A stretch of 64,000 bases of DNA from Candidatus Gottesmanbacteria bacterium GW2011_GWC1_43_10 (GCA_000995415.1 LCEX01000008.1:8398-72397), one strand, 5' to 3'; shown: positions 6,581-64,000, counted from the stretch's first letter. The notes: generated by a model from the letters alone, not told the origin. Program-made: numbers and translations.

Positions 6581-7341
6581 GTGGCAGAGTTCCGCTCGTA
6601 CATTCCCCTCAAACTATTAAGTCGGATGTGCAATATGTCTACCAATGCATCAAGTGAATCAAATAACGGGCTGACGCGCCTGGTTTCCACATAATGCCAT
6701 TCGACCGGGACTTCTTTGATTTTGTAGCCCGAACGGTTAGCCACAAAGAGTATTTCTACATCAAATCCTGCCGTCACCCGTGGTCCGCTCGCGTGTTTGT
6801 GTAAGTTATATAATTTCAATCTGGAAAAAACCTTTCGCGCCACCTCCCGCTTGAACAGTTTAAATCCGCATTGGGTATCTTCAATTCGACTTAAGCCCAA
6901 AATGAGATTTCTTACCAACATGAACCCGGGACCCATCAATCGACGTAAAAGCGGCGCTCCTGCCCGGCGACTTTTTCGCGATCCGATCACTACGTCGAAC
7001 CCCCGATCCAACCAGGGCAATAGTTTTTCAACCTGATCGATTGGGGTCGCCTGATCCAAATCCGTAAATAATATCCTGGCCCCTGTTGCTGCTAGCATCC
7101 CAGTAACGACTGTTCCAGCCTTCCCCTGATGCGTATTTTCGATAAGTCGAAAATGACTATTGCCGCCCACAAATTGCTTTATCAAGTCTTTGCTCGCATC
7201 GGTGGAACCGTCATCAACTATCAACACTTCCCAAACTAAAGGCTGTTTCTCTAAGTACCGGGCCACCTTATCCAAAGCTCCCAGGCGGATGTTTTGCTCT
7301 TCGTTGTAACAAGGAATTACTACCGATAATTGCGGTTGCAT
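6577..7341 (-). CDS. GT2 polyprenyl-phosphate sugar synthase (DPM1/ArnC-like, soluble form)
   Basis: LSVVIPCYNEEQNI...LIVDDGSTDAS GT-A DxD region, 254 aa without a C-terminal TM. Confidence 0.8.
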   Translation of the reverse strand: MQPQLSVVIPCYNEEQNIRLGALDKVARYLEKQPLVWEVLIVDDGSTDASKDLIKQFVGGNSHFRLIENTHQGKAGTVVTGMLAATGARILFTDLDQATPIDQVEKLLPWLDRGFDVVIGSRKSRRAGAPLLRRLMGPGFMLVRNLILGLSRIEDTQCGFKLFKREVARKVFSRLKLYNLHKHASGPRVTAGFDVEILFVANRSGYKIKEVPVEWHYVETRRVSPLFDSLDALVDILHIRLNSLRGMYERNSAT

Positions 7342-7443: not shown

Positions 7444-8955
7444 TTAAGGTAAGGGGTCAGTGACGGTTGGCTGATTTTCGCCTAAGTAATGTACCAATCT
7501 GAACACTTTAAACAATCCAACTTGCCATTCATCGGTGATTTCGGCTCGACCAAAACCGGCAATTTCCCATAAGGGGTGTCCCAACGGTTGACAAACTTTT
7601 TCTTCACAGACCACCAATAGCTGGTCAGTCACGGATTTGCGATTCGGATCGACCTTTGGATTCTCAATTACCACCGGTGGAGTTCCCATGATTTCCAAGA
7701 AGTAACGGTAGGCATGATCGGAATTTTTGTAGGCAATTAAAGCAAAATTATACGGTTTGCCACTTGTTTTGTCTAAAATAAATTGTGCTATCTCTTTAGT
7801 CTGGGTAACCAACCGATTTGGAGCAGCTAAAATCGGAGTCTGCTTCAACTCAAAATAACTCAACATCCCAACTACTAGTATCGCGATCAGCCACCCATAT
7901 TTGTTTTTCATGAGATGCGACAGGGCAATCGCGACCAATAAAAAAGGCAATGGAAAAGCAAACATCAAGTAGTAATCATAAATATTTCCGGTATAAAAAG
8001 AGAGCAATCCAATTCCCACCAGATACCAAATTAGTAAAACTATGAGCGCTCCATGTCGTCGCGGTTTATATTTGTTACTTTTGCTTAAATAAAAACAAAT
8101 ACCTAAAGTCAGCAATAGTACAACCGTAGCTATTCGCGCATTTTCGATGACGACTACCCGCCAAAACAATCTTAAGGTCAAGTCCCAAAACCTATAAAGT
8201 ACTGTGGTTAGTCCAAATGATTTGGCGTCTCCACCGCGCGTCACAAACTCATACACAGTGATCGTGTTGATAAACTGGTGTCTTACCTCAAATAATAAAA
8301 AGGGCAAGCTGCTTACAAATCCTCCAAACAACAAGCTTAACCAATAAACTAGCGGAATTCTAAAGCGTTTTAACCCTAAACAAACAAGGGTAATCGGAAT
8401 AAACACCAACGCGATATAATGTAACTGCAAAGCCACACCTATAGCCAAACCCGCTACAAATAAGAAGCGATAACGATCCTCACACATCACTTTTACTAGA
8501 CTGTACACTGTCAACAAGGCCCAAAACGGCAGAATGTTGGGGTTCCATGAGGAATGCGAATACGTGATCACGAGCGGTGACAAGGCATAAAGCAAAGAAG
8601 CAATTACTGCCACTTTGGTGTCGAAAAACTCCCGGCTCAATTTCCAGATAAGAAGAATTGTGGCTAATGAAAATAGTGCCACCATCACCGCCGGGCCCGT
8701 CGGATCTAGACGCCAAGCCCACAAAAATGGCACCATAAAGTAATAATACATGGGTCCCAGATGCATGAGGCCAACGCTGGTGATCGGTCCAAGAAGAGTA
8801 AGTTTATGATCTACGATCATTCGTTTGACCACCAACATATCCCGTCCCTCATCGCCCAAAAATCCCATGTAATCACCAATACGATAAAGCCGGAGATAGG
8901 CAGCAATTATGAGAATAATAAATAAAATAATATAAGGAAGATATTTTTTAAACAT
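7444..8955 (-). CDS. GT-C family membrane glycosyltransferase (ArnT/PMT-like)
   Basis: 503 aa, polytopic, GFLGDEGRD motif. Paralog of 3981..5504. Confidence 0.7.
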   Translation of the reverse strand: MFKKYLPYIILFIILIIAAYLRLYRIGDYMGFLGDEGRDMLVVKRMIVDHKLTLLGPITSVGLMHLGPMYYYFMVPFLWAWRLDPTGPAVMVALFSLATILLIWKLSREFFDTKVAVIASLLYALSPLVITYSHSSWNPNILPFWALLTVYSLVKVMCEDRYRFLFVAGLAIGVALQLHYIALVFIPITLVCLGLKRFRIPLVYWLSLLFGGFVSSLPFLLFEVRHQFINTITVYEFVTRGGDAKSFGLTTVLYRFWDLTLRLFWRVVVIENARIATVVLLLTLGICFYLSKSNKYKPRRHGALIVLLIWYLVGIGLLSFYTGNIYDYYLMFAFPLPFLLVAIALSHLMKNKYGWLIAILVVGMLSYFELKQTPILAAPNRLVTQTKEIAQFILDKTSGKPYNFALIAYKNSDHAYRYFLEIMGTPPVVIENPKVDPNRKSVTDQLLVVCEEKVCQPLGHPLWEIAGFGRAEITDEWQVGLFKVFRLVHYLGENQPTVTDPLP

Positions 8956-9082
8956 TATTTAGTTTTGTCATCCCACAATCTGCCGGCTGGCGGAGGGAAT
9001 TTAAATTATTATTTATAGATTATCCGATCCCTCCAAATGGAGACAGGCAAGTTGAATAATGACAAGGTGTCCGGCTTCATTT

Positions 9083-10185: not shown

Positions 10186-11046
10186 TTACTTTTTGAAATA
10201 TTCCAGAGTTTTTGTAAGTCCTTCTTCCAAACCAACTTTCGCTTCCCAGTCGGTTTCTCCCCAGTAGTGAGAAACTTTTTTAATGATATTAAGTAGTTCC
10301 AAAATGGTTTTTTCTTCCGGGTTACCTAAATTGATCACTTCACCCCGAGCCGCAGGAGTTGTAAAAACTGACATGATTCCTTCTATTAAATCTGAAATAT
10401 AACAAAAACTTCGAGTTTGACTGCCATCTCCCTGAATAGTTAAAGGAGTACGCGAGAGAATTTGTTTAATAAAATTTGTTACCACCCTCCCATCATCTAT
10501 ATCCATTCTTGGGCCAAAGGTATTAAAAATCCGAATGATGCGGCCATCAAGCTGATATTTTCGGATATAAGTAGCCACAAAAGATTCACCCACCCGTTTG
10601 GCTTCATCATAACAAGAACGTGGACCATTGGGATTGACATGTCCCCAATAGGTTTCTTTTTGGGGATGTTCCCGAGGGTCTCCATAAACTTCAGAGGTGG
10701 AGGCAAAAATAAATTTAGCTTGCCAAACCCGAGCCTTCTCAAGTAAATAATAAGTGCCTATTGAGTTAACTAACAATGTTTCTACGGCATATTTTTGGTA
10801 TTTTGGGGGACTAGCTGGTGAAGCAAAATGGAAAATGACACTCGCCGAAATTGCCTCGGGAAGTGGTAAAGTCACATCATGTTCAATAAATTCAAATTTA
10901 GGTTGGGATAATAAATGTGCAATATTTTTCTTATGGCCCGTAACTAGATTATCAATGCAAACGACTTCGTGACCAGTTTCGAGTAATCGATCACACAAAA
11001 AAGATCCAATAAAACCAGCACCACCGGTAACAAGACACTTCATCAA
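10186..11046 (-). CDS. uxs: UDP-glucuronate decarboxylase (UDP-xylose synthase)
   Basis: Extended SDR with GGAGFIGS. Near-identical blocks to UXS1: ASTSEVYGDPREHPQKETYWGHVNPNGPRSCYDEAKRV, RIFNTFGPRMDIDDGRVVTNFI, GDGSQTRSF, NLGNPEEKTILE. Confidence 0.85.
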   Translation of the reverse strand: MMKCLVTGGAGFIGSFLCDRLLETGHEVVCIDNLVTGHKKNIAHLLSQPKFEFIEHDVTLPLPEAISASVIFHFASPASPPKYQKYAVETLLVNSIGTYYLLEKARVWQAKFIFASTSEVYGDPREHPQKETYWGHVNPNGPRSCYDEAKRVGESFVATYIRKYQLDGRIIRIFNTFGPRMDIDDGRVVTNFIKQILSRTPLTIQGDGSQTRSFCYISDLIEGIMSVFTTPAARGEVINLGNPEEKTILELLNIIKKVSHYWGETDWEAKVGLEEGLTKTLEYFKK

Positions 11047-30663: not shown

Positions 30664-31569
30664 TTATTTGAAAGCCAAAAGAAGCACCAGGATACCCAGG
30701 ATGATTCTATACACCACAAATGGATACAAAGAATGTTTGCTTACAAACCGTAAAAAATATTTGATGGTGAGATAACCAAAAATTGCAGCTGATACGATTC
30801 CGACTGCAAAAAAAGTTAGTTCCGAAAACGCTAGTTCACCACTCGCAAATAAACCAATGGTTTTGATAAGTTTCAACCCTCCGGCTCCGGCAATGATTGG
30901 TGCGGATAGTAAAAATGCAAACCGCGCTGCTTCTTCGCGTCTCAACCCTCGCCACATGCCGGCGGAAATCGTAATCCCAGACCTGGAAACTCCGGGAATC
31001 AAAGCTACAGCTTGAGCTAGTCCCACAGTCAGACTATCCCTCCAATTCATTTGTTTTATATCCCTTATTTTCTTCCCCACTTTCTCTACATATATAAGGA
31101 CTCCGGAAAAAAGAATTAGGGTGAGAGCAATGAGCACTGGCGAGCGAAATACTGTCTCCACTTTTTTTTCAAGTAACAAACCAAAAAGCACACCGGGAAC
31201 CGTCCCAATGAGCAATAAAAACGCCAAGCGTTGAGAATTGTCATTCCCACCCCGTATGTCATTCCCGCGAAACTTGTCCTCGACTCCGATCGGGGAGCGG
31301 GAATCTATTTTAATGGATCCTCCGGTCAGGCCAGAGGATGACATTTTGGTTATCGCTGCTAATACTAATTTTTTCCAATCGTCTCTAAAAAACCAAAGTA
31401 AAGCAATCAAAGTTCCCAAATGAAGTGCCGCATCAAAAGACAACCCGTATTTTTCCTGGGAAATTCCCAGTAAATTCTCGGCAATTATCAAATGCCCAGT
31501 TGAGGATATCGGCAAAAATTCCGATATTCCCTGCACCGCACCCAATAGAATAGCTTTTACTAATTCCAT
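30664..31569 (-). CDS. uppP: Undecaprenyl-diphosphatase UppP/BacA, carrying a 36-codon in-frame repeat-derived insertion
   Basis: EFLPISSTGH and PGVSRSGITISAG motifs. Loop 2 is about 20 aa longer than in E. coli and is encoded by a palindromic repeat at 31239..31346. Confidence 0.85.
   Translation of the reverse strand: MELVKAILLGAVQGISEFLPISSTGHLIIAENLLGISQEKYGLSFDAALHLGTLIALLWFFRDDWKKLVLAAITKMSSSGLTGGSIKIDSRSPIGVEDKFRGNDIRGGNDNSQRLAFLLLIGTVPGVLFGLLLEKKVETVFRSPVLIALTLILFSGVLIYVEKVGKKIRDIKQMNWRDSLTVGLAQAVALIPGVSRSGITISAGMWRGLRREEAARFAFLLSAPIIAGAGGLKLIKTIGLFASGELAFSELTFFAVGIVSAAIFGYLTIKYFLRFVSKHSLYPFVVYRIILGILVLLLAFK
31239..31346 (-). mobile_element. MITE/RPE-like palindromic repeat (GTCATYCC...GGGAATGACA family), 108 bp, inserted in-frame inside uppP
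   Basis: The coding-strand sequence AATGTCATCCTCTGGCCTGACCGGAGGATCCAT...GATTCCCGC...CGCGGGAATGACATACGGGGTGGGAATGACAA aligns end-to-end with 41186..41295. Confidence 0.7.
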
Positions 31570-31575
31570 GTAACA

Positions 31576-32394
31576 TTACTTAACTAACGATTTTAGTATA
31601 TCAAGATTCTTCTTATCTGGCCCTTTATCATCAAACCCCGGAGTTTCCAAAATTAGGGGCAACTTATCAAAATGCGGCGAATTTAATAATAATTTAAGCG
31701 CCGGAGTACCCACAAATCCTGCTCCCAAATTCTCATGCCGGTCACGAAAACTTCCGGCTGCAACTTTACTATCATTGACGTGCATACACTCAATACTTTC
31801 CCACCCCACAGTTGTTTGAATCATTTTATTCAAGCTTTCCATCTTTTCATAAGTATCAAATGTATAACCGCCTGCAAATAAGTGCGCCGTATCCAGACAC
31901 ACGCCGATTTGTGGAGAACCAACAACCTCACACATTTGCGAAAGCTCTTCACCGGTCGAACCGACTTTGCCTTTTCCACCCGAGGCTACTTCAAGTAACA
32001 GTTTCGTTTTGCCATGAGTTTGCCGAAATATTGAATTTATCGAATCAACAACAACTGGCAAAGCTGCGGCAAACCCTTTACCTTTGTGACTTCCGGTGTG
32101 AACAATCACGCCCTTAGCGCCAATTTTATCGCCAAACCGCAAATCCTCAACCAGGCTTTTGATTGAAAGCTCACGCAAAGTTTCTTTTTCACTAGCCAGA
32201 TTGATCAAATAACACGCGTGGATAAAAATTGGACTGATTCCTAAATCAGTAGCTTTAGTTTTAAAAGCTTCACAATCGCTATCTGTAAATTTTGGCCCTG
32301 CAAAAGACTGCGGTGGTGAGGAAAAAATTTGGATGCAACTAGCTCCCATCGCACTGGCCTTTTCCAAAACCGCAACCAGTCCCGAGGATGACAT
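31576..32394 (-). CDS. nfo: Endonuclease IV (AP endonuclease family 2)
   Basis: FIHACYLINLAS...GVIVHTGS...LLLEVASGG TIM-barrel Nfo blocks. 272 aa. Confidence 0.85.
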   Translation of the reverse strand: MSSSGLVAVLEKASAMGASCIQIFSSPPQSFAGPKFTDSDCEAFKTKATDLGISPIFIHACYLINLASEKETLRELSIKSLVEDLRFGDKIGAKGVIVHTGSHKGKGFAAALPVVVDSINSIFRQTHGKTKLLLEVASGGKGKVGSTGEELSQMCEVVGSPQIGVCLDTAHLFAGGYTFDTYEKMESLNKMIQTTVGWESIECMHVNDSKVAAGSFRDRHENLGAGFVGTPALKLLLNSPHFDKLPLILETPGFDDKGPDKKNLDILKSLVK

Positions 32395-32420
32395 TATTTT
32401 CTAACCTCTAGACGTTTACT

Positions 32421-35212: not shown

Positions 35213-37398
35213 TTACCTGCCTAAATATTTTTTAATTTTCTCTTCTATTCCTGATGTGGCTTTTTGTGTCAGATCTTTTATTTGTTTGGTATAAAACGCA
35301 ATTTTTTCTTGCAACAAAACCGAAACAAAACCTTTGAGCTGGTCCCGGTTCATGAAACAAGTTAACGGTTCTTTTTGGCAATCTGTATAAAACTTGATGG
35401 TTGTAGTTTGCGGTAAACTATTACCATTAATTTTTAAGGCAACTTCTGACTGGGCGCTTCTTGATGCTACAAAATCGACAAAGAATGGTTCAAATCTTGT
35501 ATCCAACTGCCCGGGAATTTGGGCTGTAATTGGGGCTGCTTCATCAAGTTTCGCTTCCAATGACTGGACTCTTGTTGGACGCGACAAAATGGAAAGCGCA
35601 ACTACAAATAAACGAATTGGGTTACGTCCGGCAATTGCCGTCGTATTGGCCCAATAAAAGGTTGAGGTCCCAGGATCAAGAGGCAAAGCTCCCAGATCTG
35701 GCTGAAAGATAGGAGCCAATTCTTTGACTTGGGAATCAGTTAAAGTCAGGGGTGTGATTTTCCAAATTTCTTGATCTTTAGTAATGGTCGCCATTTTGAT
35801 TTGCTCAAGTTTGGGAGTTTCCCAACCCAGAGCGAGCGTGTTGTTTGCTTGGTCAGGGATTATGAAAAACCTCGGATGTTTGGCAAAAGTAATAAACTGC
35901 GGAGTATTGTTACTTAGTATTTCAACAAGTGTCATCTTGACCGGACTCACAAAACCACTATTTAAGTTGTTTGTTGTAATAAAATCCGGCTCCAGTGTGA
36001 TCCGGCTGTTGTCTACTGTAATTTCCACCACTTCTTTTTCCTGTTTAACTTGAGCTTCAGATGCGCCGGATAATTTAATCCCAAAGGGTTGGACTCCGTC
36101 GTCAGACCGTACCGGATGGCCGGCATAAATATCAGGATTGGAAGGTACCTTTTTGACAGTATATTGCTGCGAACCGTCAATGGTATAAGGCACGATCCAA
36201 TAAGCGCGCGATACTTGAGCAGCTTGGGTCTGGTAAACATCGGTTAGAGGTGAAAAATTTCTAAGATCTGTAAGCAACAAATCTCCGCCAATCACCTGGA
36301 TCCGCGCCCGATACGTGCGGCCAAAGTACCAGAGCACCGTCCCTTCCTCGGGAAAGCGCGGACTTTTAAGCATCCGGCTAGAATTTAGAGGAGTTTGATT
36401 TTTGAAAAGTACCGCGTATTCATGTGGTGAAAAAACTTTGATTTCGCCTGTTTTTTGTTTTTGGACTATTTGCGCCAGTTGTTTTTGATATTCGGCTTTA
36501 AAGTCAACCCACTCGGCTGAATTTTCAAGCCCTAAAAGAATGAGTCCGACATCTTTTTGAGCAATCATTTGATCAAGTAGACTGGTGAAATAATTGGTGC
36601 CAGGAGTCTTAGGATTTTGTAAATAATCATTGGGCTGTGAAGTAAAATACGTAAAAGAGGATCCGTAGTTTCGGTCAAGATCACTTATGGTTTGGCGCAC
36701 CATTACAAGATCAAGTTGACTAGCTTTGTCTGGAGCGGGAATCAGCGGATGACCCAAAGAGGGATAATAAGGAGCATCAAAAATCCCCCCATAAAGCGTA
36801 TAACTGTCTGTTTCATATTGTTCTTTTGTGATTTCATGAAGTTCTACTCCGTATTCATCATGAATGTATTTGAGCGACCAGGCATCAACCATCCAGGCGA
36901 CTGTAAATGTAGGGAAATAACCAAACTGGGTATGAAACTCGCCAAAAACTGTATCAATCAATTGTTTGCGTTCAGTCTGGGTGTAACCGATGAGAAATGC
37001 ATTACGCGCCGAGTACCAATCAGATCCGCTGCTTTCACCTTTGTAATTCACGGCGCTGGCTGAAGCAAGTTGGGGGGTGATTTCCAAAAGAATTCCCAAA
37101 GATTGAGCCCGGGGTAAATTTTTGATTTTTTCAATAGTTGCGCTATCTACCAAAGCATCGTATCGCAGAGCCCAAGCCAAAGGTAAGTTTTTATTTTCAT
37201 CGAGCGAATTGATCTCCGAAAATATATCCGAGGTTCCCCCATGACAACAGGTTTGGGGACCCAACAGGTTTGGGGACCACGGATTTGGTGAATAATCACA
37301 GCATGAGAACCCAAGGATTCTGCACGAACCGGTAATGAGACCAGACTGACGACAAAAATAAAACTTAAAATAATCCCGATTCCGCGAATAATGTTCAT
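35213..37398 (-). pseudogene. Large secreted protein gene split by a 17-bp tandem duplication (signal-peptide ORF 37147..37398 plus body ORF 35213..37264)
   Basis: Removing one copy of CAACAGGTTTGGGGACC (37246-37262 / 37263-37279) joins MNIIRGIGIILSFIFVVSLVSLPVRAESLG...IRGPQTC in frame to CHGGTSDIFSEINSL... of the 683-aa ORF. Confidence 0.6.
37246..37279. repeat. Perfect 17-bp tandem duplication (CAACAGGTTTGGGGACC x2) causing the frameshift in the secreted-protein gene
   Basis: Read directly from the sequence at 37246-37262 and 37263-37279. Confidence 0.9.
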
Positions 37399-38880: not shown

Positions 38881-39468
38881 ATGAAGATATGGACGTATTT
38901 GACTTTGTTTACGGTCGTGGCCATCTCTGCAATCGGTTTGGGTACGATCGTCAAAAAAAATAACTCGGCGCGAGTTAGTCCTCCACCCACTATCACGCGG
39001 ACTACCCCAAATACCCAAGAAACTATCCGGGTGGACTTGAAACTTGCACCAGAGACCACTTCTCTACATGTGGGCGAAGAAACTATTTATGATGTCACTA
39101 TCGATTCACGCGACCTGGGTGTAGTCATCGTCCAGGGCAGCTTTAGTTTCGACCCGGCTAGACTTGCGATTTTAAGTATTGAACCCGGACCTTTCCTATC
39201 ACAACCAGATGTTTTAGCCAAATCTGTCGATCCGGTGGCGGGAAAAATCTCGTATACACTCGGTTCTTTAAAATACGGTCAAGGCGAAGGCGTTGTTTTC
39301 CGAATCAAAGTGAAAGCCTTAACGCAAACTCAAGGTTTGGTGAGTCCACTTTCGTTTGAACGGGAAAAAACCAAAATTGGACTCAAAGACCAAGTAAAAG
39401 ATATTGGTTTTTCAGTAGATCAAACCGTGATTCTTTTTAATGAACAACTTATGACCATTTTGTCTTAA
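38881..39468 (+). CDS. Membrane-anchored cohesin-like domain protein
   Basis: N-terminal TM. VTIDSRDLGVVIVQGSFSFDPARLAILSIEPG matches the cohesin DFxLxFDP..L block. Confidence 0.5.
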   Translation: MKIWTYLTLFTVVAISAIGLGTIVKKNNSARVSPPPTITRTTPNTQETIRVDLKLAPETTSLHVGEETIYDVTIDSRDLGVVIVQGSFSFDPARLAILSIEPGPFLSQPDVLAKSVDPVAGKISYTLGSLKYGQGEGVVFRIKVKALTQTQGLVSPLSFEREKTKIGLKDQVKDIGFSVDQTVILFNEQLMTILS

Positions 39469-39522
39469 ACTCAAAAATATTGCTTTGCAGTAAAGTCAAG
39501 AATTAGTGTATATTAGAATAAC

Positions 39523-40614
39523 ATGAAAAAATTTCTGCTCATTTTAGCTTTTGTTTTACTACTACTAGCAATTCCGATCACGCTTTTTCTAGTAAAACAG
39601 CGTCAAGAAATCCGCCAGCGGGCTGTTCCTTCAACCTCGATTTATTTTGATCCGCTATCCTTAACTAAAAATGTGGATGATACATTCACCATCAATGTAC
39701 AGATGGATACCGGTCAAAATTTGGTGACTTTTGTGAAACTGAACCTGGCTTTTGATCCAACTTACTTAGAAGCCGTAAATTTGCAGAATGGAACTATTTT
39801 ACCGCAAGTTCTGGTTGATCGGGTACTAGGTAGTGGTACAGCCAGTATCAGTATTGGAGCTGGTCCGGGACAACCATATCAAGGCACGGGCACTATCGCC
39901 ACATTGACACTCAAGGCACTCGCGCCGACTACCACAGCTGTGACCATCAATGTCGCCGATACGACCGAAGTCAGAGCTCAAGGCGAAGGTTTTCAAAGCG
40001 TGCTCTTGAGTAACCGTAATCCGGCATCAATTGTCATCACTGGTACGGGTGGAGCCAGCCCCTCACCTTCGGCTAGTCCGTCTGACCAACCGTCACCGTC
40101 ACCATCCAGCTCGCCGGGTGGACCCACACCTACACCATCACCTTCGCCGTCAGCTTCACCGGCACAGGTAACGAAAATCACTTCTCCGGTAAACGGCGCG
40201 ACTTTGACTACAGCTAGACCCACGTTTTCCGGCACTAGTTTCGCAAGCGCTTTGGTCGTCGTAAACATCAATACCAATCCGGTGACTACCAGTACGATCA
40301 CGGCTGATACTAGCGGCGATTGGTCATATACCCCAACTTCTGACCTACCAAACGGCAGCTATACTTTGACCGTCACCGGTAACGATAATGCCGGTACCAA
40401 TGAAACAGCTACCGCTACTTTTACCATCTCCGTAAGCGGCGGCACCGGTGGTACAACTATCGCTACCCCCACCCCGTCTGCTTCACCGATCGCTGGTGGA
40501 GTGAGTCCTTCACCGACGGTACCGGTGACTGGAGCTACTACACCTACGCTTTTCTTGCTGGGTTTGGCTGCTATTTTGATCATGCTTGGCACTGGGACGA
40601 TTTTCTTGCATTAA
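39523..40614 (+). CDS. Surface protein with cohesin-like domain, P/S/T linker, Ig-like domain and C-terminal TM anchor
   Basis: VKLNLAFDPTYLEAVNLQNG cohesin-like. SPSPSASPSDQPSPSPSSSPGGPTPTPSPSPSASP linker. C-terminal LFLLGLAAILIMLG TM. Confidence 0.55.
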   Translation: MKKFLLILAFVLLLLAIPITLFLVKQRQEIRQRAVPSTSIYFDPLSLTKNVDDTFTINVQMDTGQNLVTFVKLNLAFDPTYLEAVNLQNGTILPQVLVDRVLGSGTASISIGAGPGQPYQGTGTIATLTLKALAPTTTAVTINVADTTEVRAQGEGFQSVLLSNRNPASIVITGTGGASPSPSASPSDQPSPSPSSSPGGPTPTPSPSPSASPAQVTKITSPVNGATLTTARPTFSGTSFASALVVVNINTNPVTTSTITADTSGDWSYTPTSDLPNGSYTLTVTGNDNAGTNETATATFTISVSGGTGGTTIATPTPSASPIAGGVSPSPTVPVTGATTPTLFLLGLAAILIMLGTGTIFLH

Positions 40615-40673
40615 AGCTCCAGAATATGTAACTAACTAACTCACTCACCTTACGCATCTATCCTTGTCATTCC

Positions 40674-40754
40674 CATGAAAATGGAAATCTATTTCCTGGA
40701 TTCCCGCTGGAGTTTACCCTGATGAAAATCGGGGCGGGAATGACGCTGCGTAAC
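40674..40754 (+). repeat. Shorter copy of the same MITE-like repeat family
   Basis: TTGTCATTCCC...GGATTCCCGCTGG...ATCGGGGCGGGAATGAC. Termini and the internal GATTCCCGC/GCGGGAAT match the family. Confidence 0.55.
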
Positions 40755-40893
40755 ATGAATAACTCAATCTCTATCCTAAACTTTTGATAGGTTAATCTAT
40801 AGTTGGACCATGTTTGTATGACTTGACGACACAGTATTTTTTCCAGTATTATTAATTCGGTTATTTTTTGGTTAATTAAAATATTTCGAGCCT

Positions 40894-41154
40894 ATGCTGG
40901 AAAAAATCGGTGAAAAGGTTTCGGTTAATTTAGTATATAACCACTCAACCGGCGTGGTAATTCCCAAACAACTCCGCTGGAAAAACCAAATTTATCAAAT
41001 CCAAAAAATAGGTCTCCATTACACTCTTTATCAAGGCAACACGCTTATCCACATGTTTTCCGTCTGTGACCAAAACCATTATTTTCTCCTGTCTCTTGAT
41101 ACCAAAACCCTGCACTGGACACTGGAACAAGTAGCAGATGGAGTCACAAACTAA
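40894..41154 (+). CDS. Hypothetical small protein flanked by two copies of the MITE-like repeat
   Basis: 86 aa ORF with no recognisable motif. Repeats lie at 40674..40754 and 41186..41295. Confidence 0.3.
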   Translation: MLEKIGEKVSVNLVYNHSTGVVIPKQLRWKNQIYQIQKIGLHYTLYQGNTLIHMFSVCDQNHYFLLSLDTKTLHWTLEQVADGVTN

Positions 41155-41185
41155 TTTTCAATTTGAAATTAGGAGTTACATACTC

Positions 41186-41295
41186 TGTCATCCTCCGGCT
41201 TGACCGAAGGATCCATAGTTACTTTGAAAACGGATTCCCGCTTTTCCGCCATAGGCGGACAGGCGGCGGGAATGACATACAGGGCGGGAATGACA
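41186..41295 (+). repeat. Full-length copy of the MITE-like repeat family
   Basis: TGTCATCCTCCGGCTTGACCGAAGGATCCAT...GGATTCCCGCTTTTCCGCCATAGGCGGACAGGCGGCGGGAATGACATACAGGGCGGGAATGACAA, 20 bp upstream of dinB. Confidence 0.65.
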
Positions 41296-41314
41296 ACCCT
41301 AATAATATATAACA

Positions 41315-42700
41315 ATGAAACAATTCAGCAATAATCATTCTAGTTGGATGCATATTGATTTGAACTCCTGTTTTGCGACCATTGAACAACAGGCCAATCC
41401 GTTACTTCGTGGCAAACCCATTGTCGTAGCTGCTTATACCACGCCGCGGGGTTGTATATTGGCTCCTTCAATCGAAGCCAAAAAATATGGCGTCAAAACC
41501 GGAATGCAAGTGCAAGAAGGCAAACTGCTTTGTCCAAAGTTAATCGTACTTCCCTCTGACCCACCCAAGTACCGCTTCGTCAATCGTGCACTTCTGAAAT
41601 TGTTTAACGAATATTCGCCGGAAGTTTCCGTGCGTTCAATTGACGAGATGCTATTGAATTTTAGTTATTTTCTTTCTTCATTTGATCCCGTCATTCTGGG
41701 GAGGATCCGCCAGGCGGCGGAGACGACTCCAGAATCCGAAAAAATAAGAACGGATCCTGGACAAGCCAGGATAACTATTCTTTCTGAAAGATCCTTAATC
41801 GACATTGCCCATGAAATCAAACGGCGTATTAAAAGTGAAATTGGCGAGTGGTTGACAGTGTCAATTGGCATCTCCACCAATCCGTACTTGGCCAAACTGG
41901 CTGCCGGCATCCATAAACCTGATGGACTAGATGAGATTAATGAGTCCAATATTTTGAATATTTTATCTTCTCTGAAACTGGTTGACCTCCCATATATCAA
42001 AGAACGCAATGCGTTGCGTTTACTATCTGTAGGCATCAAAACTCCGGTGGATTTTTATTTCGCCTCTTTGCAACAACTCAAAACTGCATTTCAATCTATC
42101 AACGGTTACTATTGGCACCTGCGCCTTCACGGACTTGCCGTTGATGAAGTTGAGTGGCAACGCAAATCTATTGGACATCAATATGCACTCCCCAAACGGA
42201 CGACAAATGTCAAAGAAATCGAACAATTGTTGTGTAAATTAGTAGAAAAAGTAGGCCGAAGGTTAAGAGACAACAATTTAACTGCTTGCGGCATGCATTT
42301 AGCTATTGGCTACGACGATGGATTTTGGCACCTGGGACACAAATTCCCACAAAAAATGTATGCTTCAAGTGATTTATTTGCGGCAAGTAAAATACTGCTT
42401 AAAGAAGCTTTACCCTTAAAACCAGTTCGTTCTCTGGCAATTACTTGTTTTGCATTGGAAGAAAATCTCTATACGCAGACAAGTATTTTTCAAGATGAAC
42501 TCAAAAAACGGGCTATTACAAAAGCTATGGATCGAGTCAATGATAAATGGGGAGAATTTTCGGTGATTCCCGGCACCATGTTAGGCATTCAACGGGAAGG
42601 GAAAATTTTGGATCGCATTGCTTTTGGCCGGGTCATGGACATGCCGGAAATTGTCCTAAAAGAAGAAACACGGTGGAAAAGAGAAAGATATGCACCATAA
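41315..42700 (+). CDS. dinB: Y-family DNA polymerase (DinB/Pol IV-like)
   Basis: HIDLNSCFATIEQQANPLLRGKPIVVA, SIDEMLLNF, ISTNPYLAKLAAGIHKPDGL. 461 aa. Confidence 0.85.
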   Translation: MKQFSNNHSSWMHIDLNSCFATIEQQANPLLRGKPIVVAAYTTPRGCILAPSIEAKKYGVKTGMQVQEGKLLCPKLIVLPSDPPKYRFVNRALLKLFNEYSPEVSVRSIDEMLLNFSYFLSSFDPVILGRIRQAAETTPESEKIRTDPGQARITILSERSLIDIAHEIKRRIKSEIGEWLTVSIGISTNPYLAKLAAGIHKPDGLDEINESNILNILSSLKLVDLPYIKERNALRLLSVGIKTPVDFYFASLQQLKTAFQSINGYYWHLRLHGLAVDEVEWQRKSIGHQYALPKRTTNVKEIEQLLCKLVEKVGRRLRDNNLTACGMHLAIGYDDGFWHLGHKFPQKMYASSDLFAASKILLKEALPLKPVRSLAITCFALEENLYTQTSIFQDELKKRAITKAMDRVNDKWGEFSVIPGTMLGIQREGKILDRIAFGRVMDMPEIVLKEETRWKRERYAP

Positions 42701-43560: not shown

Positions 43561-44457
43561 ATGGAAAAAAAATATGGATTTCTGTTTATTGTCGTTGCCG
43601 CCACACTCTGGAGCTTGGATGGATTACTCCGAAGAAGTCTCTACTCGCTTCCACCGACAGTTGTAGTTTTGTATGAACATATCATAGGCCTGGTTTTTCT
43701 TTTACCTTTCGCTCTAAAACACATACCAAAACTCAAAACACTAGATAAAAAAGATATCGGGGCAATTATCTGGATTGCATTTTTGGGAGGAGTATTGGGA
43801 ACTGTTTTTTATACCACAGCTCTCGGAAAAATCAACTATATTCAGTTTTCAGTAGTGATTCTTTTACAAAAACTGCAACCTATCTTCGTTATTTTGACAG
43901 CGAAACTACTTCTTAAGGAACCAATAACCAAAAATTATCTCATCTGGGCTCTAGTTGCCATGATTGGCGCTTATTTTATTTCATTTCCAACGCTTAGTAT
44001 CAATTTTCAAAATGACCTGCCGACTATTACAGCAGCACTTTTTGCAGTAGCGGCAGCGTTCTGTTGGGGGTCATCCACGAGTTTTAATAAGTATGCGCTG
44101 CGCAAAGTCCCTTCAGAATTTGCCCTGGCATTGCGTTTTTTATTTACTATACCTTTAGCATTTATTTTTGTATTATTCACCAATTCAACGCCCGCTCTCA
44201 CCGCACTTTCAAACAGTCAATTGTCAACGCTGGTATTAATTGCACTTTCAACCGGTATGGTAGCCATGGTGATTTATTTTCGTGGACTCAAATATACGCC
44301 AGCACGTTTGTCAGCTATTGCCGAACTTGCCTGGCCGGTATCTGCACTATTTATTGGCTACTATTTTTTCCATGAGCGCCTGGTATTAACTCAAATTGTG
44401 GGAGCAGCTATACTTCTTTTTTCCATGCTAAAAGTCACCCGACTGCAAAAAACATGA
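43561..44457 (+). CDS. EamA/DMT-family transporter, putative riboflavin importer (RibN-like)
   Basis: 298 aa, 10 TM, duplicated EamA halves. Downstream of the FMN riboswitch and overlapping the riboflavin kinase gene by 4 nt. Confidence 0.75.
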   Translation: MEKKYGFLFIVVAATLWSLDGLLRRSLYSLPPTVVVLYEHIIGLVFLLPFALKHIPKLKTLDKKDIGAIIWIAFLGGVLGTVFYTTALGKINYIQFSVVILLQKLQPIFVILTAKLLLKEPITKNYLIWALVAMIGAYFISFPTLSINFQNDLPTITAALFAVAAAFCWGSSTSFNKYALRKVPSEFALALRFLFTIPLAFIFVLFTNSTPALTALSNSQLSTLVLIALSTGMVAMVIYFRGLKYTPARLSAIAELAWPVSALFIGYYFFHERLVLTQIVGAAILLFSMLKVTRLQKT

Positions 44458-61664: not shown

Positions 61665-64000
61665 CTAACTCGGTTGCTGCGGGTAGTGACAATGTTTAAA
61701 TTTCTTTGGAGTACCATCGGACTTCATCGCTCCGCACCAGCAGGGATCGTTGCGGCCGAGTTTTGGAGATTTGGCGCTAAGAGAAGATTGTCCCCGCCCC
61801 GCTACTTGCCGATCCGCCATCTGTACCAATCGCGAATCCTGCTTGATCAGACTTGATAATAAATTACCGGTTGTTTTTCCGGTGGTTGGTGGTGATGAAG
61901 CAGTACGCGCCATTTGCTTCAGACTACCCAACAGATCTCCCGCATCGATTTTGGGTGTGGGAGACGGAGCCGTAGCTCGAATCGTCGGAGTAAATGTAGA
62001 GGTTGGTTGCGGCCCCAGTTGGACTTGGGCTCTAAATATCCGGTGCGAGATGTCATAATCTATTTGGGCAATCAAGCTTTCAAACATCCCAAAAGCCTCG
62101 TTTTTGTATTCGACCAAAGGATCGCGCTGGGCATAACCGCGTAAACCAATACCCTCGCGCAAATCATCTATCGCATCCAAATGATCCATCCACAAATTAT
62201 CGATGACTGTCAAGGTCACCCACCGCTCTACTTGGCGCATGATTTCTTCCCCGAATTGTTTTTCGCGTTGGGAGTATAAGTCTTTGACTAAATTCACCAA
62301 GAATTCGGAAACCTCTAACCCTGTATGCATCTCCTGAAGTTGCGTCACCAGTTGTTTTTGTGATGGTTCATCAAACGGGACAATCGAAACAAATTCCTGG
62401 ATGATTTTTTCGCGTTCGATTTCACCTCTACTTCCGGCATACGTCATGGTGATCTGTTCTATTTGATGAATCAAACTCTCAAGAATCTTGTCTTTTAAGT
62501 CACTTCCTCCAAGAGCACTGCGCCGCCGCTTATAAACAATTTCCCGCTGTTTATTTAAAACATCATCGTATTCGACCAAATGCTTGCGGCTATCAAAATG
62601 AAACCCTTCAACTTTGATTTGGGCCTGTTCGATAGCCTTGGATACCATCGCGTGTTCGAGAGGCACTTCTTCCGGCAATTTAAAAATCGTCATCAGTCTG
62701 GCTACCTGATCTCCGCCGAACAGGCGCATGATGTCATCTTCCAGAGATACAAAAAAGCGGGAAGATCCCGGATCACCTTGCCGCCCGGCGCGGCCGCGGA
62801 GTTGATTGTCAATCCGCCGCGATTCATGCCTTTCCGTCCCGATCACGTGCAACCCACCCAATTTCACGACCTCATCATGTCGCATGCTCCACTTTTTAAA
62901 AACACTTGCATAATTGGCATCTGATTTGATCGGTGACACTCCACCTAAAATGATATCCACTCCCCGACCGGCCATATTGGTCGCGACCGTGACTGCACCT
63001 TTTTCTCCGGCTTCGGAGATGATCATCGCCTCTTTTTCGTGATTTTTAGCATTTAATACCTGGTGCGGTATTCCTTTGCGCCGCAGTAGATCAGAAATGA
63101 TTTCATTTTTATCAATTGAGGTCGTCCCGACCAGGACCGGTTGTCCGCGCTTATAATGTTCAGCTACTTCTTGAGCGATAGCGCCGTATTTGGCCCGGGC
63201 GGTTTTATAAACTACGTCTGAATTATCCTTACGCACCATCGGTCGATGCGTGGGGATAGCTACTACATCCAGCTTATAAATTTTGTGAAATTCTTCGGCT
63301 TCTGTCGCGGCAGTTCCGGTCATACCAGCGAGTTTCTCGTACATGCGGAAATAATTTTGCAAAGACACTGTGGCCAAAGTTTTTGATTCCTGTTGGATAG
63401 TCACCCCTTCTTTGGCTTCAATGGCTTGGTGTAAACCTTCGGAAAATCTCCGCCCCATAAGAAGCCGTCCGGTAAATTCATCAACTATCACCACCTGATT
63501 GTCGCGGACGATATAATCTTTTTCACGCTTGAATAAAGTCCTGGCTTTCAGAGCCGCTTCGATCAAATGTACAGTCTGGAAATCTTTTTCGTACAAGTTG
63601 GGAATCCCCAGCATTTTTTCGACCTTGGTGATGCCATGTTCATTTAGATGCGCAGTCCGCAATTTTTCATCAACGATAAAATCAGTCTCGGGATTCAAGC
63701 GTTCGACGAGTTTGGCTATTTCATAGTATTTTTGTGTCGGTTCGGTGTCGGGTGCAGAAATAATATGTGGTGTCCGCGCCTCGTCAATCAAGACCGAATC
63801 TACCTCATCGACGATGGCATAATGGTATTCACGCTGCACACACTGGGAAATCTCTGACACCATGTTATCTCGTAAATAATCAAACCCGAATTCGGAGTTG
63901 ATACCATAAGTGATGTCAGCCTGATATGCTTCTTTGCGACTGATGGGTTTTAAGTGTCTCAAGCGCCAGTCAATAGCTGATTTGTCTTCATACTCCGGAT
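61665..64000 (-). CDS. secA: Preprotein translocase ATPase SecA (C-terminal roughly 770 aa; N-terminus beyond window end)
   Basis: DITYGINSEFGFDYLRDNM, TNMAGRGVDIILGG, C-terminal zinc motif DPCWCGAMKSDGTPKKFKHCHY. The ORF continues past 64000. Confidence 0.9.
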   Translation of the reverse strand, partial: PEYEDKSAIDWRLRHLKPISRKEAYQADITYGINSEFGFDYLRDNMVSEISQCVQREYHYAIVDEVDSVLIDEARTPHIISAPDTEPTQKYYEIAKLVERLNPETDFIVDEKLRTAHLNEHGITKVEKMLGIPNLYEKDFQTVHLIEAALKARTLFKREKDYIVRDNQVVIVDEFTGRLLMGRRFSEGLHQAIEAKEGVTIQQESKTLATVSLQNYFRMYEKLAGMTGTAATEAEEFHKIYKLDVVAIPTHRPMVRKDNSDVVYKTARAKYGAIAQEVAEHYKRGQPVLVGTTSIDKNEIISDLLRRKGIPHQVLNAKNHEKEAMIISEAGEKGAVTVATNMAGRGVDIILGGVSPIKSDANYASVFKKWSMRHDEVVKLGGLHVIGTERHESRRIDNQLRGRAGRQGDPGSSRFFVSLEDDIMRLFGGDQVARLMTIFKLPEEVPLEHAMVSKAIEQAQIKVEGFHFDSRKHLVEYDDVLNKQREIVYKRRRSALGGSDLKDKILESLIHQIEQITMTYAGSRGEIEREKIIQEFVSIVPFDEPSQKQLVTQLQEMHTGLEVSEFLVNLVKDLYSQREKQFGEEIMRQVERWVTLTVIDNLWMDHLDAIDDLREGIGLRGYAQRDPLVEYKNEAFGMFESLIAQIDYDISHRIFRAQVQLGPQPTSTFTPTIRATAPSPTPKIDAGDLLGSLKQMARTASSPPTTGKTTGNLLSSLIKQDSRLVQMADRQVAGRGQSSLSAKSPKLGRNDPCWCGAMKSDGTPKKFKHCHYPQQPS

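What the first reader, a model, noticed from the sequence alone, without database searches (positions are those of the whole stretch)
40674..41295. Two further copies of the same repeat bracket a small orphan ORF just upstream of dinB, with possible degenerate copies elsewhere
Copies at 40674-40754 (shortened) and 41186-41295 (full) flank ORF 40894..41154 in direct orientation. The full copy ends 20 bp before the dinB start. A degenerate candidate lies at 8966-9070, beginning TGTCATCC and ending AATGACAA. A 16-nt near-match to the element terminus (AATGTCATCCTCGGG) supplies the ATG of nfo at 32380-32396. This pattern suggests a mobile or recombinogenic element that has been repeatedly domesticated. 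The flanked small ORF could be cargo or a remnant.
Basis: seen in the sequence. Interest (0 to 1): 0.55.

Follow-up and report, generated by a model that had tools for sequence, protein, structure and literature searches.

The report
Hairpin-pair mini-elements around dinB
The repeats are real copies of a small two-hairpin DNA element of a type found in nearly all bacterial phyla; in this Gottesmanbacteria genome they also sit in frame inside two genes, and the small ORF between them is a conserved partner of dinB, not cargo.

Summary
The two repeats are real: 40665-40746 and 41186-41296, both on the + strand. They belong to a cluster of five copies within 10.6 kb. A third copy lies in frame inside uppP (31238-31345, - strand). 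A fourth lies in frame inside dinB (41689-41776). A fifth sits upstream of nfo in every public assembly of this species, but the window keeps only its first ~12 nt, because a 131-nt deletion fused them to nfo codon 14.

Each copy is a pair of inverted hairpins: GTCAT-stem-loop-stem-ATC, a spacer, then the same unit reversed. These are the invariant flanks of the Neisseria NTS / Ssn-related motifs, which a 2025 paper linked to GIY-YIG single-strand nucleases. The same loop subtypes occur in many phyla.

The "orphan" ORF has 471 homologous clusters. It always sits directly upstream of dinB, including in relatives that lack the repeats, so it is not cargo. The 8966-9070 candidate is not statistically supported.

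The most likely nature is a non-autonomous palindromic element of the NTS/SRM class with Rickettsia-RPE-like in-frame insertions. No nuclease gene lies in the DNA I could reach, so that part of the mechanism is inferred.

The parts
40665..40746 (+). Element copy 3 (short form), between the cohesin/Big_13 gene and the ORF86 promoter. A hairpin: GTCAT-TCCCAT-GAAA-ATGGAA-ATC at 40666-40688. B hairpin (reversed): GGAT-TCCCGC-26-nt loop-GCGGGA-ATGAC at 40698-40745.
   Evidence: E = 0.017 with an independent profile; 2.9e-15 with the four-copy profile. DNA fold z = -3.7. The same B-loop subtype (TGGAGTTTACCC..GGGG) occurs in 12 loci from other phyla. Absent at this site in L007.
40823..40852 (+). 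Promoter-like site of the ORF86-dinB unit (TTGACG-18-TATTAT). It lies downstream of copy 3. It is context, not part of the element.
   Evidence: 10 of 12 consensus matches. -35/-10 hexamers are conserved in L007, L002 and L134.
40894..41154 (+). ORF86: a conserved 86-aa all-beta protein encoded directly upstream of dinB. It is not part of the element and not cargo.
   Evidence: 19 clusters, 60-100% identity; 471 clusters; pLDDT 91.3; no PDB fold match; no family hit. Synteny.
41186..41296 (+). Element copy 1 (full form), between ORF86 and dinB. A hairpin at 41187-41212. B hairpin at 41232-41277, with a 24-nt loop that itself holds the hairpin CCGCCATAGGCGG. Tail repeat GGGAATGACAA at 41286-41296.
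   Evidence: I4; z = -2.9 on each strand. Its B module is 48 nt identical to that of the nfo-upstream copy in the public contigs. The orthologous spacer is 16 nt in L004 and L005.
41689..41776 (+). Element copy 4, in frame inside dinB. It encodes ~PVILGRIRQAAETTPESEKIRTDPGQARITI. A hairpin at 41690-41735. B hairpin at 41752-41775, whose end has decayed to GATAAC (L007 keeps GATGAC).
   Evidence: DNA fold z = -4.4. In the PDB alignment, DinB residues 119-159 face only ~3 residues in homologues. The insert is absent from the L004 DinB (420 aa) and present in L007-L009. It is ~99% identical at nucleotide level to L007.
31238..31345 (-). Element copy 2, in frame inside uppP/bacA (ORF 30664..31569, - strand). 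It encodes MSSSGLTGGSIKIDSRSPIGVEDKFRGNDIRGGNDN. A hairpin at 31317-31342. B hairpin at 31258-31304. Tail at 31238-31257.
   Evidence: The PDB alignment puts the extra residues in query 67-108. The closest relatives without the insert are P0022/L133 and L146. L134 has an independent insertion of a different subtype in the same loop.
32378..32394 (-). Remnant of element copy 5 (ATGTCATCCTCGG) fused to nfo codon 14. It supplies the ATG of ORF 31576..32394. The 131-nt deletion junction lies in the GGACT microhomology at 32378-32382.
   Evidence: L001, L132 and L136-L143 all carry the full copy and a 280-aa Nfo. No public gene has the window's 272-aa product.
8964..9071 (-). Doubtful decayed copy. 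It has TTGTCAT...ATGACAA ends and, read on the - strand, ends 9 nt before the ATG at 8955. It is not statistically supported.
   Evidence: The sequence is identical in public assemblies of the species. No close relative was available for comparison.

Best explanation
The repeat is a small (82-111 nt) non-autonomous palindromic element made of two hairpins in inverted orientation. The A hairpin is GTCAT-stem-loop-stem-ATC. After a 10-25 nt spacer comes the B hairpin, the same unit reversed: GAT-stem-loop-stem-ATGAC. B is often followed by a short repeat of its ..GGGAATGACAA end.

It belongs to the NTS / Ssn-related-motif (SRM) class of hairpin repeats, which occurs across bacterial phyla. Here the host is a Candidatus Gottesmanbacteria (CPR/Patescibacteria) genome.

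Shown:
- Five copies cluster in 10.6 kb around uppP, nfo, ORF86 and dinB.
- Two are inserted in frame into loops of UppP and DinB without breaking the genes, as Rickettsia palindromic elements are.
- Three are intergenic, and two of those end 9-18 nt before a start codon.
- Copies come and go between related lineages, and different subtypes replace one another at the same sites.
- The stems differ between copies but stay paired, while GTC..AT/AT..C never changes.

Inferred:
- In single-stranded DNA each hairpin is a binding and cutting site for a small GIY-YIG nuclease of the Ssn family encoded elsewhere.
- The A...B pair is the gene-less miniature of the NTS-ssn-NTS unit.
- Spread and exchange run through single-strand nicking followed by recombination, not cut-and-paste transposition; no target-site duplication is seen.

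ORF86 is an unrelated, conserved gene that forms a unit with dinB.

Confidence by part: about 0.85 that this is an NTS/SRM-class hairpin-pair element with in-frame insertions and that ORF86 is not cargo; about 0.4 for the Ssn-dependent mechanism in this genome.
For: Anatomy and repetition.

Flanks invariant, stems variable but paired (CCTCCGG, CCTCTGG, CCTCGGA, CCCCGA, CCTGAA, TCCCAT, TCTGGGG).

Link to the published system (PMC11893778):
- NTS = CGTCATTCCCGCGMAVGCGGGAATCYRG.
- SsnA cleavage depends on the 3 nt upstream of the palindrome.
- SsnA binding depends on the C just after the palindrome.
- These are exactly the positions that are invariant here.
- The canonical NTS core GTCATTCCCGCGAAAGCGGGAATC sits at the orthologous dinB-upstream and nfo-upstream sites in relatives L007 and L146.

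Distribution:
- Those loci show the same loop subtypes and the same tail repeat.
- An A hairpin lies within 110 nt upstream in 35 of 141 matches, against 10 of 595 control windows.
- NTS(+)-GIY-YIG-NTS(-) units with the same A..B polarity occur in L056 and L255.

In-frame insertions.

Turnover. Window-specific deletion of the nfo copy.

ORF86 is conserved and syntenic with dinB.
Against: - No GIY-YIG gene lies in the 64-kb window or in about 150 kb of related Gottesmanbacteria loci (jackhmmer; Pfam on small ORFs). The rest of the genome could not be read.
- The published degenerate SRM pattern matches none of the copies, because the A loops and stems and the 24-28-nt B loops fall outside it.
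- Genome-wide copy number is unknown. A scan of JGI metagenomes with the lineage-specific tail found only 3 contigs.
- Two of five copies are inside genes, against 2% reported for NTS in N. meningitidis.
- No transposition or cleavage event is observed directly. Presence or absence between lineages could also come from deletion.
- The window carries a second, unrelated deletion, so the nfo deletion need not be caused by the element.
Confidence: 0.6

Rival explanations
1. The copies are domesticated cis-regulatory elements of DNA-repair genes. Their hairpins, in the mRNA leader or as protein-binding DNA, would control nfo and dinB expression: an attenuator, an RNase or stability site, or a damage-response operator.
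For: - All five copies lie in the sense orientation of the host or downstream gene.
- The B end ATGACAA lies 9 nt before the nfo ATG and 18 nt before the dinB ATG. The same layout appears in an unrelated contig, L144.
- Copy 1 lies inside the ORF86-dinB transcription unit.
- The review PMC10969869 records that Correia elements and other MITEs can provide promoters and RNase III sites.
Against: - L004 and L005 have a 16-nt ORF86-dinB spacer with no element.
- Two copies lie inside coding sequence.
- The same element class occurs in unrelated contexts in many phyla.
- The ORF86 promoter and a separately conserved motif lie outside the elements.
- No terminator-like site was found in the region, and no Rfam family matches.
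Confidence: 0.15
2. The elements are classical MITEs or REP/BIME-type repeats, moved in trans by a DDE transposase or a REP-associated tyrosine transposase (RAYT) rather than by an Ssn nuclease.
For: - Terminal inverted repeats TGTCAT(T/C)CC...GG(G/A)ATGACA.
- Size of 82-111 nt, multiple copies, mostly near gene ends.
- BIMEs are also built from REP hairpins in alternating orientation (established knowledge; this comparison is also drawn in PMC11893778).
Against: - No target-site duplication at any of the four intact copies (flanks read).
- No transposase or RAYT gene in the window (gene map; Pfam labels).
- The REP head tetranucleotide GTAG/GTGG is replaced by GTCAT.
- The GTC..C flanks match the Ssn determinants.
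- Units carrying a GIY-YIG gene between such hairpins were found.
Confidence: 0.1
3. The two copies and ORF86 together form one mobile unit, a composite element with ORF86 as cargo.
For: Two copies in direct orientation bracket the ORF. The NTS-gene-NTS architecture exists for ssn.
Against: - ORF86 is not a GIY-YIG protein.
- ORF86 keeps its position next to dinB in L004, L005, L002 and L134, where one or both flanking copies are missing or of another subtype.
- Each flanking repeat is itself a complete A+B pair. In the true gene-carrying units, a single forward hairpin lies upstream and a single reverse hairpin downstream.
- The ORF86 promoter lies between copy 3 and the ORF and is conserved in relatives.
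Confidence: 0.03
4. The similarity is chance, low-complexity sequence or an assembly artefact.
For: The 8966-9070 candidate and the bare 14-16 nt at nfo are within random expectation when scored alone.
Against: - Two copies share 31 nt at 94% identity.
- Motif and hairpin counts exceed all shuffles.
- The copies are identical in 24 independently assembled public contigs.
Confidence: 0.01

Closest known systems
NTS / Ssn-related motifs (SRM) with the SsnA GIY-YIG ssDNA nuclease (Nat Commun 2025, PMC11893778)
   Same: - Hairpin repeats framed by GTC-AT...AT-C.
- The canonical NTS core occurs at orthologous sites in relatives.
- The dRS3-like ATTCCCGC...GCGGGAAT palindrome forms the B hairpin.
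- Copies cluster around particular genes.
- The class is found across phyla.
- The forward/reverse hairpin polarity equals that of the NTS-ssn-NTS unit.
   Different: - The host is a CPR bacterium. The paper's searches used RefSeq representative genomes, and the term Patescibacteria does not occur in its text.
- The unit is a fixed A+B pair with no gene between.
- The A stems are not the NTS sequence.
- The B loops are 24-28 nt with inner hairpins, outside the published SRM pattern.
- Two of five copies lie in frame inside genes.
- No ssn gene was found in the DNA available.
Rickettsia palindromic elements (RPE; Ogata et al. 2000, as summarised in PMC10969869)
   Same: Palindromic repeats of about 100-150 nt, found both between genes and inserted in frame into unrelated housekeeping genes. 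They add a peptide segment without destroying the protein.
   Different: The host phylum differs. RPE sequence families were not compared here. RPEs have no assigned enzyme. The copy number known here is small.
REP/BIME elements with RAYT transposases, and IS200/IS605 hairpin-guided transposition
   Same: Short hairpins with a conserved head, arranged in alternating orientation in composite units. Recognition as single-stranded DNA. No target-site duplication.
   Different: The head is GTCAT, not GTAG/GTGG. The associated enzyme class is GIY-YIG rather than HUH. No RAYT or TnpA gene is seen.
Correia / NEMIS elements and dRS3/NIME arrays of Neisseria
   Same: Small repeats near gene starts with effects on expression. 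Neisserial dRS3 shares the ATTCCC-N8-GGGAAT palindrome.
   Different: Correia elements have 26-bp terminal repeats and TA duplications. None of these features is present here.

Membership tests
NTS / SRM hairpin repeats (Ssn-related) | A hairpin whose palindrome is preceded by GTC and followed by C. These are the positions needed for SsnA cleavage and binding. | tested here: met
   All A hairpins, and all B hairpins read on the opposite strand, are GTCAT-stem-loop-stem-ATC. The single exception is the window's dinB-internal B end, GTTAT, which is GTCAT in L007. The determinants are taken from PMC11893778.
NTS / SRM hairpin repeats (Ssn-related) | Match to the published search patterns (NTS consensus, or the degenerate SRM pattern HGTCWYN(0-2)YYVSBRHN(0-5)WNVSBRGN(0-2)RNCYNB). 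| tested here: not met
   The SRM pattern gives one unrelated hit in the window and none at the copies. The NTS core GTCATTCCCGCGAAAGCGGGAATC is present only in relatives, at the orthologous sites: L007-L009 upstream of dinB and L146 upstream of nfo.
NTS / SRM hairpin repeats (Ssn-related) | A small single-domain GIY-YIG (cd10448) gene in the same genome, typically flanked by the motifs. | not testable with these tools
   None in the window or in the fetched Gottesmanbacteria loci. Only about 75 kb of the species' genome could be read. Hairpin-flanked GIY-YIG genes were seen only in other taxa (L056, L255).
NTS / SRM hairpin repeats (Ssn-related) | Many copies per genome, non-randomly clustered and mostly intergenic. 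| tested here: inconclusive
   Five copies lie within 10.6 kb and none in the other 53 kb. Two of the five are inside genes.
Rickettsia palindromic elements (RPE-like behaviour) | A palindromic repeat inserted in frame in protein-coding genes, with the host protein's conserved blocks intact on both sides. | tested here: met
   UppP. DinB. Both ORFs are intact in 24 public contigs.
Rickettsia palindromic elements (RPE-like behaviour) | Sequence membership in one of the described RPE families. | not tested
One Rickettsiaceae MAG carries loop type 1 of the B hairpin (L055).
Classical MITE | Terminal inverted repeats plus target-site duplications, and a related transposase-encoding parent. | tested here: not met
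   Terminal inverted repeats are present (TGTCAT...ATGACA). No direct duplication flanks any of the four intact copies. No transposase is in the window.
REP / BIME | A GTAG/GTGG head on the hairpin and a RAYT gene flanked by REPs. | tested here: not met
   The head is GTCAT in every copy. No RAYT-like ORF is in the window.

The most novel reading that the evidence does not exclude
A pan-bacterial hairpin-pair element linked to Ssn nucleases is active in CPR bacteria. There it writes peptide segments in frame into housekeeping and repair enzymes (UppP, DinB). It moves between lineages together with its flanking coding sequence, by nuclease-initiated recombination. That would be a homing-like process, suggested by the ~180-nt, ~99% identical tract around the dinB copy in genes that are otherwise 83% identical. 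If so, it would also connect Rickettsia-type protein-coding palindromes to a defined enzyme family.
Probability: 0.2. Interest if true: 0.75.

Novelty: new variant of a known kind. Interest (0 to 1): 0.5.

Why it matters
- Hairpin repeats of the NTS/SRM class were tied to an enzyme only in 2025, and what they do outside Neisseria is an open question.
- This locus shows the class in a CPR genome, as a fixed two-hairpin miniature.
- Loop subtypes are shared almost base for base with distant phyla.
- The in-frame insertions into UppP and DinB resemble the long-unexplained Rickettsia coding palindromes.
- The locus gives concrete, testable material: occupied and empty alleles of the same sites in related lineages, a tract that looks like co-conversion, and a natural deletion through a hairpin.
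- It also corrects the annotation picture. The small ORF is a widespread, uncharacterised partner of dinB, not an orphan.

Tried and rejected
- **Published SRM pattern:** no true hits in the window.
- **Rfam at gathering threshold and tRNA scan:** nothing found.
- **Looking for the nuclease:** a regex search for a GIY-YIG gene in the window found nothing convincing. All-against-all clustering of small ORFs in 120 hairpin-bearing loci found no recurrent nuclease. jackhmmer later found 5 GIY-YIG ORFs, none in Gottesmanbacteria DNA.
- **Target-site duplications:** the empty sites (L133, L004) are too diverged to define the junctions, and no duplication is visible at any copy.
- **P0021 (271 aa) as an empty uppP allele:** rejected. 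It has the insert and lacks a different 30-aa stretch.
- **Metagenome scan with the lineage-specific tail:** only 3 contigs, of which one (L146) was useful.
- **Last homologue search, spent on the gene next to the 8966-9070 candidate:** the nearest non-identical relatives are 67% identical or less, too far to compare the intergenic region.
- **Fold search for ORF86:** no match with E at or below 0.001.
- **Two apparent insertions in the window relative to DPYH01000023.1** (35915-36042 and 44049-44214): these are only NN gaps in that record.
- **Literature search for peptide and DNA words of the repeat:** apart from the Ssn paper, it returned primer noise.

Full report
**Source.** Proteins of the window are named Candidatus Gottesmanbacteria (Microgenomates, CPR/Patescibacteria) by their sources. 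The window is collinear and otherwise identical to NCBI contig DPYH01000023.1 and to many other assemblies of the same groundwater population. It is not exactly any of them. It lacks 131 nt at nfo and 69 nt in an epimerase gene that all of them have. It also has sequence where DPYH01000023.1 has NN gaps.

**Checking the observation.**
- The full copy lies at 41186-41296 on the + strand and ends 18 nt before the dinB ATG.
- The short copy is real, but its limits are 40665-40746.
- A profile built only from the 41186 copy and the copy at 31238-31345 recovers the short copy at E = 0.017.
- The motif GGGAATGACA and the GTCAT-framed hairpins are far more frequent than in shuffled or simulated sequence.
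- Two things were missed. The 31238-31345 copy lies in frame inside the undecaprenyl-diphosphatase gene uppP. A fourth copy lies in frame inside dinB itself at 41689-41776.

**Anatomy.**
- Every copy is a pair of hairpins. The A hairpin reads GTCAT, a 5-7-bp stem, a loop (usually 4-7 nt; 27 nt in the dinB-internal copy), the complementary stem, then ATC.
- After a spacer of 10-25 nt comes the B hairpin. It is the same unit on the other strand: GAT-TCCCGC-loop-GCGGGA-ATGAC.
- In the window's copies 1-3 the B loop is 24-28 nt and holds an inner hairpin.
- The full forms end with a second ..GGGAATGACAA.
- Stems differ between copies (CCTCCGG, CCTCTGG, CCTCGGA, CCCCGA, CCTGAA, TCCCAT, TCTGGGG) but remain paired. 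GTC..AT and AT..C do not change.
- As single-stranded DNA the copies fold better than shuffles, with z from -1.6 to -4.4.
- No copy has a target-site duplication.

**The coding copies.**
- Against solved UppP structures, the conserved blocks align on both sides of query residues 67-108. The E. coli protein has about 17 residues there.
- Against solved DinB/Dpo4 structures, residues 119-159 face about three residues.
- Relatives give the empty states. UppP of P0022/L133 and L146 (about 90% nucleotide identity) lacks the insert. DinB of L004 (420 aa) lacks its insert, while L007-L009 (DinB 87% identical) have it.
- In L134 the same UppP loop carries a pair of a different subtype: another A stem and another B loop. 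That points to an independent insertion or a replacement.
- In-frame palindromic inserts in housekeeping genes are the hallmark of Rickettsia palindromic elements (summarised in PMC10969869).

**The nfo match.**
- Scored alone, the 14-16 nt at 32380-32396 are within chance (E = 3.3).
- All ten public contigs of the species that I aligned carry a complete 102-nt copy at that point. It ends 9 nt before the true start of nfo, which encodes MRKLGVHVSISKGLVAV... (280 aa).
- The B hairpin of that copy is identical over 48 nt to the one upstream of dinB.
- The window has a 131-nt deletion between two GGACT microhomologies, one in the A stem and one at nfo codons 13-14. The element's first bases, ATGTCATCCTCGG, therefore now open a 272-aa ORF. 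No public gene has that product.
- I cannot say whether the deletion is a real variant or an assembly fault. The second window-specific deletion (69 nt, in frame, in the epimerase gene) argues for caution.

**The 8966-9070 candidate.** It has TTGTCAT...ATGACAA ends and, read on the minus strand, ends 9 nt before the ATG at 8955. But there is no nhmmer hit, the alignment score has p of about 0.04-0.1, and the fold z is -1.3. No close relative was available for comparison. It stays an unproven possibility.

**The small ORF.**
- ORF 40894..41154 is not an orphan. There are 19 clusters at 60-100% identity, all about 86 aa, and 471 representative clusters in a profile search of 1.8 billion proteins.
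- The all-beta model is confident (pLDDT 91.3). It has no PDB fold match and no family hit.
- In every relative fetched it sits directly upstream of dinB.
- This holds in L004 and L005, where only 16 nt separate the two genes. It also holds in L004, where a pair with a quite different stem (GTCATTGCA...) lies upstream.
- A promoter-like site at 40823-40852 and a conserved motif after it lie between copy 3 and the ORF. Both are shared by relatives.
- ORF86 is therefore a partner of dinB that the repeats happen to bracket.

**What class of element.**
- A full-text search for words of the repeat led to the description of the Ssn nucleases (PMC11893778).
- That paper defines the Neisseria transformation sequence CGTCATTCCCGCGMAVGCGGGAATCYRG and related motifs (SRM). 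It shows that a 94-aa GIY-YIG protein binds and cuts them only as single-stranded DNA.
- Cleavage depends on the three bases before the palindrome. Binding depends on the C after it. The nuclease gene is typically bracketed as NTS-ssnA-NTS.
- The invariant positions of the window's hairpins are the same ones.
- The canonical NTS core itself stands at the orthologous sites upstream of dinB (L007-L009) and upstream of nfo (L146) in relatives.
- The published degenerate SRM pattern does not match the window's copies. I therefore treat them as a variant, not a plain member.

**Distribution.**
They include Dehalococcoidia, Nitrospirales, Planctomycetes, Saccharibacteria, other Patescibacteria, Rickettsiaceae, Binatia and Burkholderiales, among others.
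- Those loci show the window's own subtypes. Loop type 1 (TGGAGTTTACCC..GGGG) is in 12 loci. Loop type 2 (CCCCGATCGGGGTCGAGGACAAG) is in 11 loci. The tail repeat is in 51 loci.
- A perfect forward A hairpin lies within 110 nt upstream in 35 of 141 cases, against 10 of 595 control windows. The pair is therefore a general architecture.
- The short-loop form is also common in IMG/VR contigs.
- Among 2.1 Mb of fetched loci, five small GIY-YIG ORFs were found. Two (L056, L255) have a forward hairpin just upstream and a reverse one just downstream, and two more have adjacent hairpins.
- The window's A...B pair has the polarity of such a unit with the gene removed.

**Dynamics.**
- The five copies of the species lie within 10.6 kb of a 64-kb window. 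By my arithmetic the chance of such clustering is about 0.004.
- All five are in the sense orientation of the host or downstream gene.
- Between the window and L007, dinB is 82.9% identical overall (third codon positions 67.5%). The internal copy plus about 75 nt of upstream coding flank is about 99% identical, with no mismatch from 41671 to 41760.
- That is either nucleotide-level constraint or a recent recombination tract carrying the element and its flank. I cannot decide between them.

**Most likely mechanism.**
- Shown: a hairpin-pair repeat of the NTS/SRM class; insertion polymorphism between lineages; in-frame tolerance in two enzymes; no duplications at the ends.
- Inferred: recognition of the folded hairpins in single-stranded DNA by an Ssn-type nuclease encoded elsewhere, with spread or exchange by nick-initiated recombination.
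- The inference is weak in one place. No such nuclease gene could be found or excluded, because only about 75 kb of the genome was readable.

**Rivals.** A regulatory role at nfo and dinB is possible, but it would be secondary. A classical MITE or REP/RAYT origin is contradicted by the missing duplications, the missing transposase and the different head. The cargo model for ORF86 is contradicted by synteny. Chance is excluded for the four intact copies.

**Verdict.** This is a new variant of a known kind of element in an unusual host, with RPE-like coding insertions. It is of moderate interest.

Noticed in passing
window 40894-41154 (ORF86), with dinB at 41315-42700: A conserved 86-aa all-beta protein is always encoded directly upstream of dinB in Gottesmanbacteria. 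Its family has 471 representative clusters, a confident model (pLDDT 91), and no PDB fold, Pfam or NCBIfam match. It may be an uncharacterised accessory factor of this Y-family polymerase.
   Followed up: partly
window 40823-40880: A promoter-like TTGACG-18-TATTAT is followed by the conserved motif TTCGGTTATTTTTTGGTTAAT. L002 has TTCGGTTATTGTTCGGTAAC and L134 has TTCGGTTATTGTTTGGTTAAT. This is a candidate operator for the ORF86-dinB unit, perhaps a damage-response box.
   Followed up: partly
window ~10248-10250, in ORF 10186..11046 (- strand): The window lacks 69 nt (23 codons, VFLPLPEDDPLRRKPDITKAQNLLH) that all public assemblies of the species have in a UDP-sugar epimerase/decarboxylase-like gene. 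This is a second window-specific in-frame deletion. It may be a real variant or an assembly fault.
   Followed up: partly
window 31576-32394 (nfo): Because of the 131-nt deletion, the window's endonuclease IV lacks its first 13 residues, including the conserved GVHVS strand, and starts from an ATG donated by the element. The protein may be impaired in this variant.
   Followed up: partly
window 41611-41790 compared with L007 6310-6490: A ~180-nt tract of dinB (the internal element plus its upstream flank) is ~99% identical between lineages whose dinB is otherwise 83% identical. The 3' end of ORF86 (41041-41160) is also unusually similar between the two.
   Followed up: partly
L004 5800-5915; L134 10225-10330; L146 ~330-400: Relatives carry hairpin pairs of other subtypes at the same three sites: upstream of ORF86, in the UppP loop, and upstream of nfo. 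One has a Rickettsia-like GTCATTGCA stem. The same positions are colonised or rewritten repeatedly.
   Followed up: partly
window 35915-36042 and 44049-44214: NCBI contig DPYH01000023.1 has NN gaps where the window has 128 and 166 nt of ordinary coding sequence. The window therefore comes from a different assembly.
   Followed up: yes
window 38881-40614: Two adjacent secreted proteins carry cohesin and bacterial Ig-like (Big_13) domains. Relatives also have a dockerin-like protein in this block (L007), which hints at a cohesin-dockerin surface system in this CPR lineage.
   Followed up: no
window 7135-7157 (-) and 62733-62766 (+): Two isolated GTCAT-stem-loop-stem-AT hairpins lie inside coding regions. 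Their number is within the ~2.5 expected by chance.
   Followed up: no
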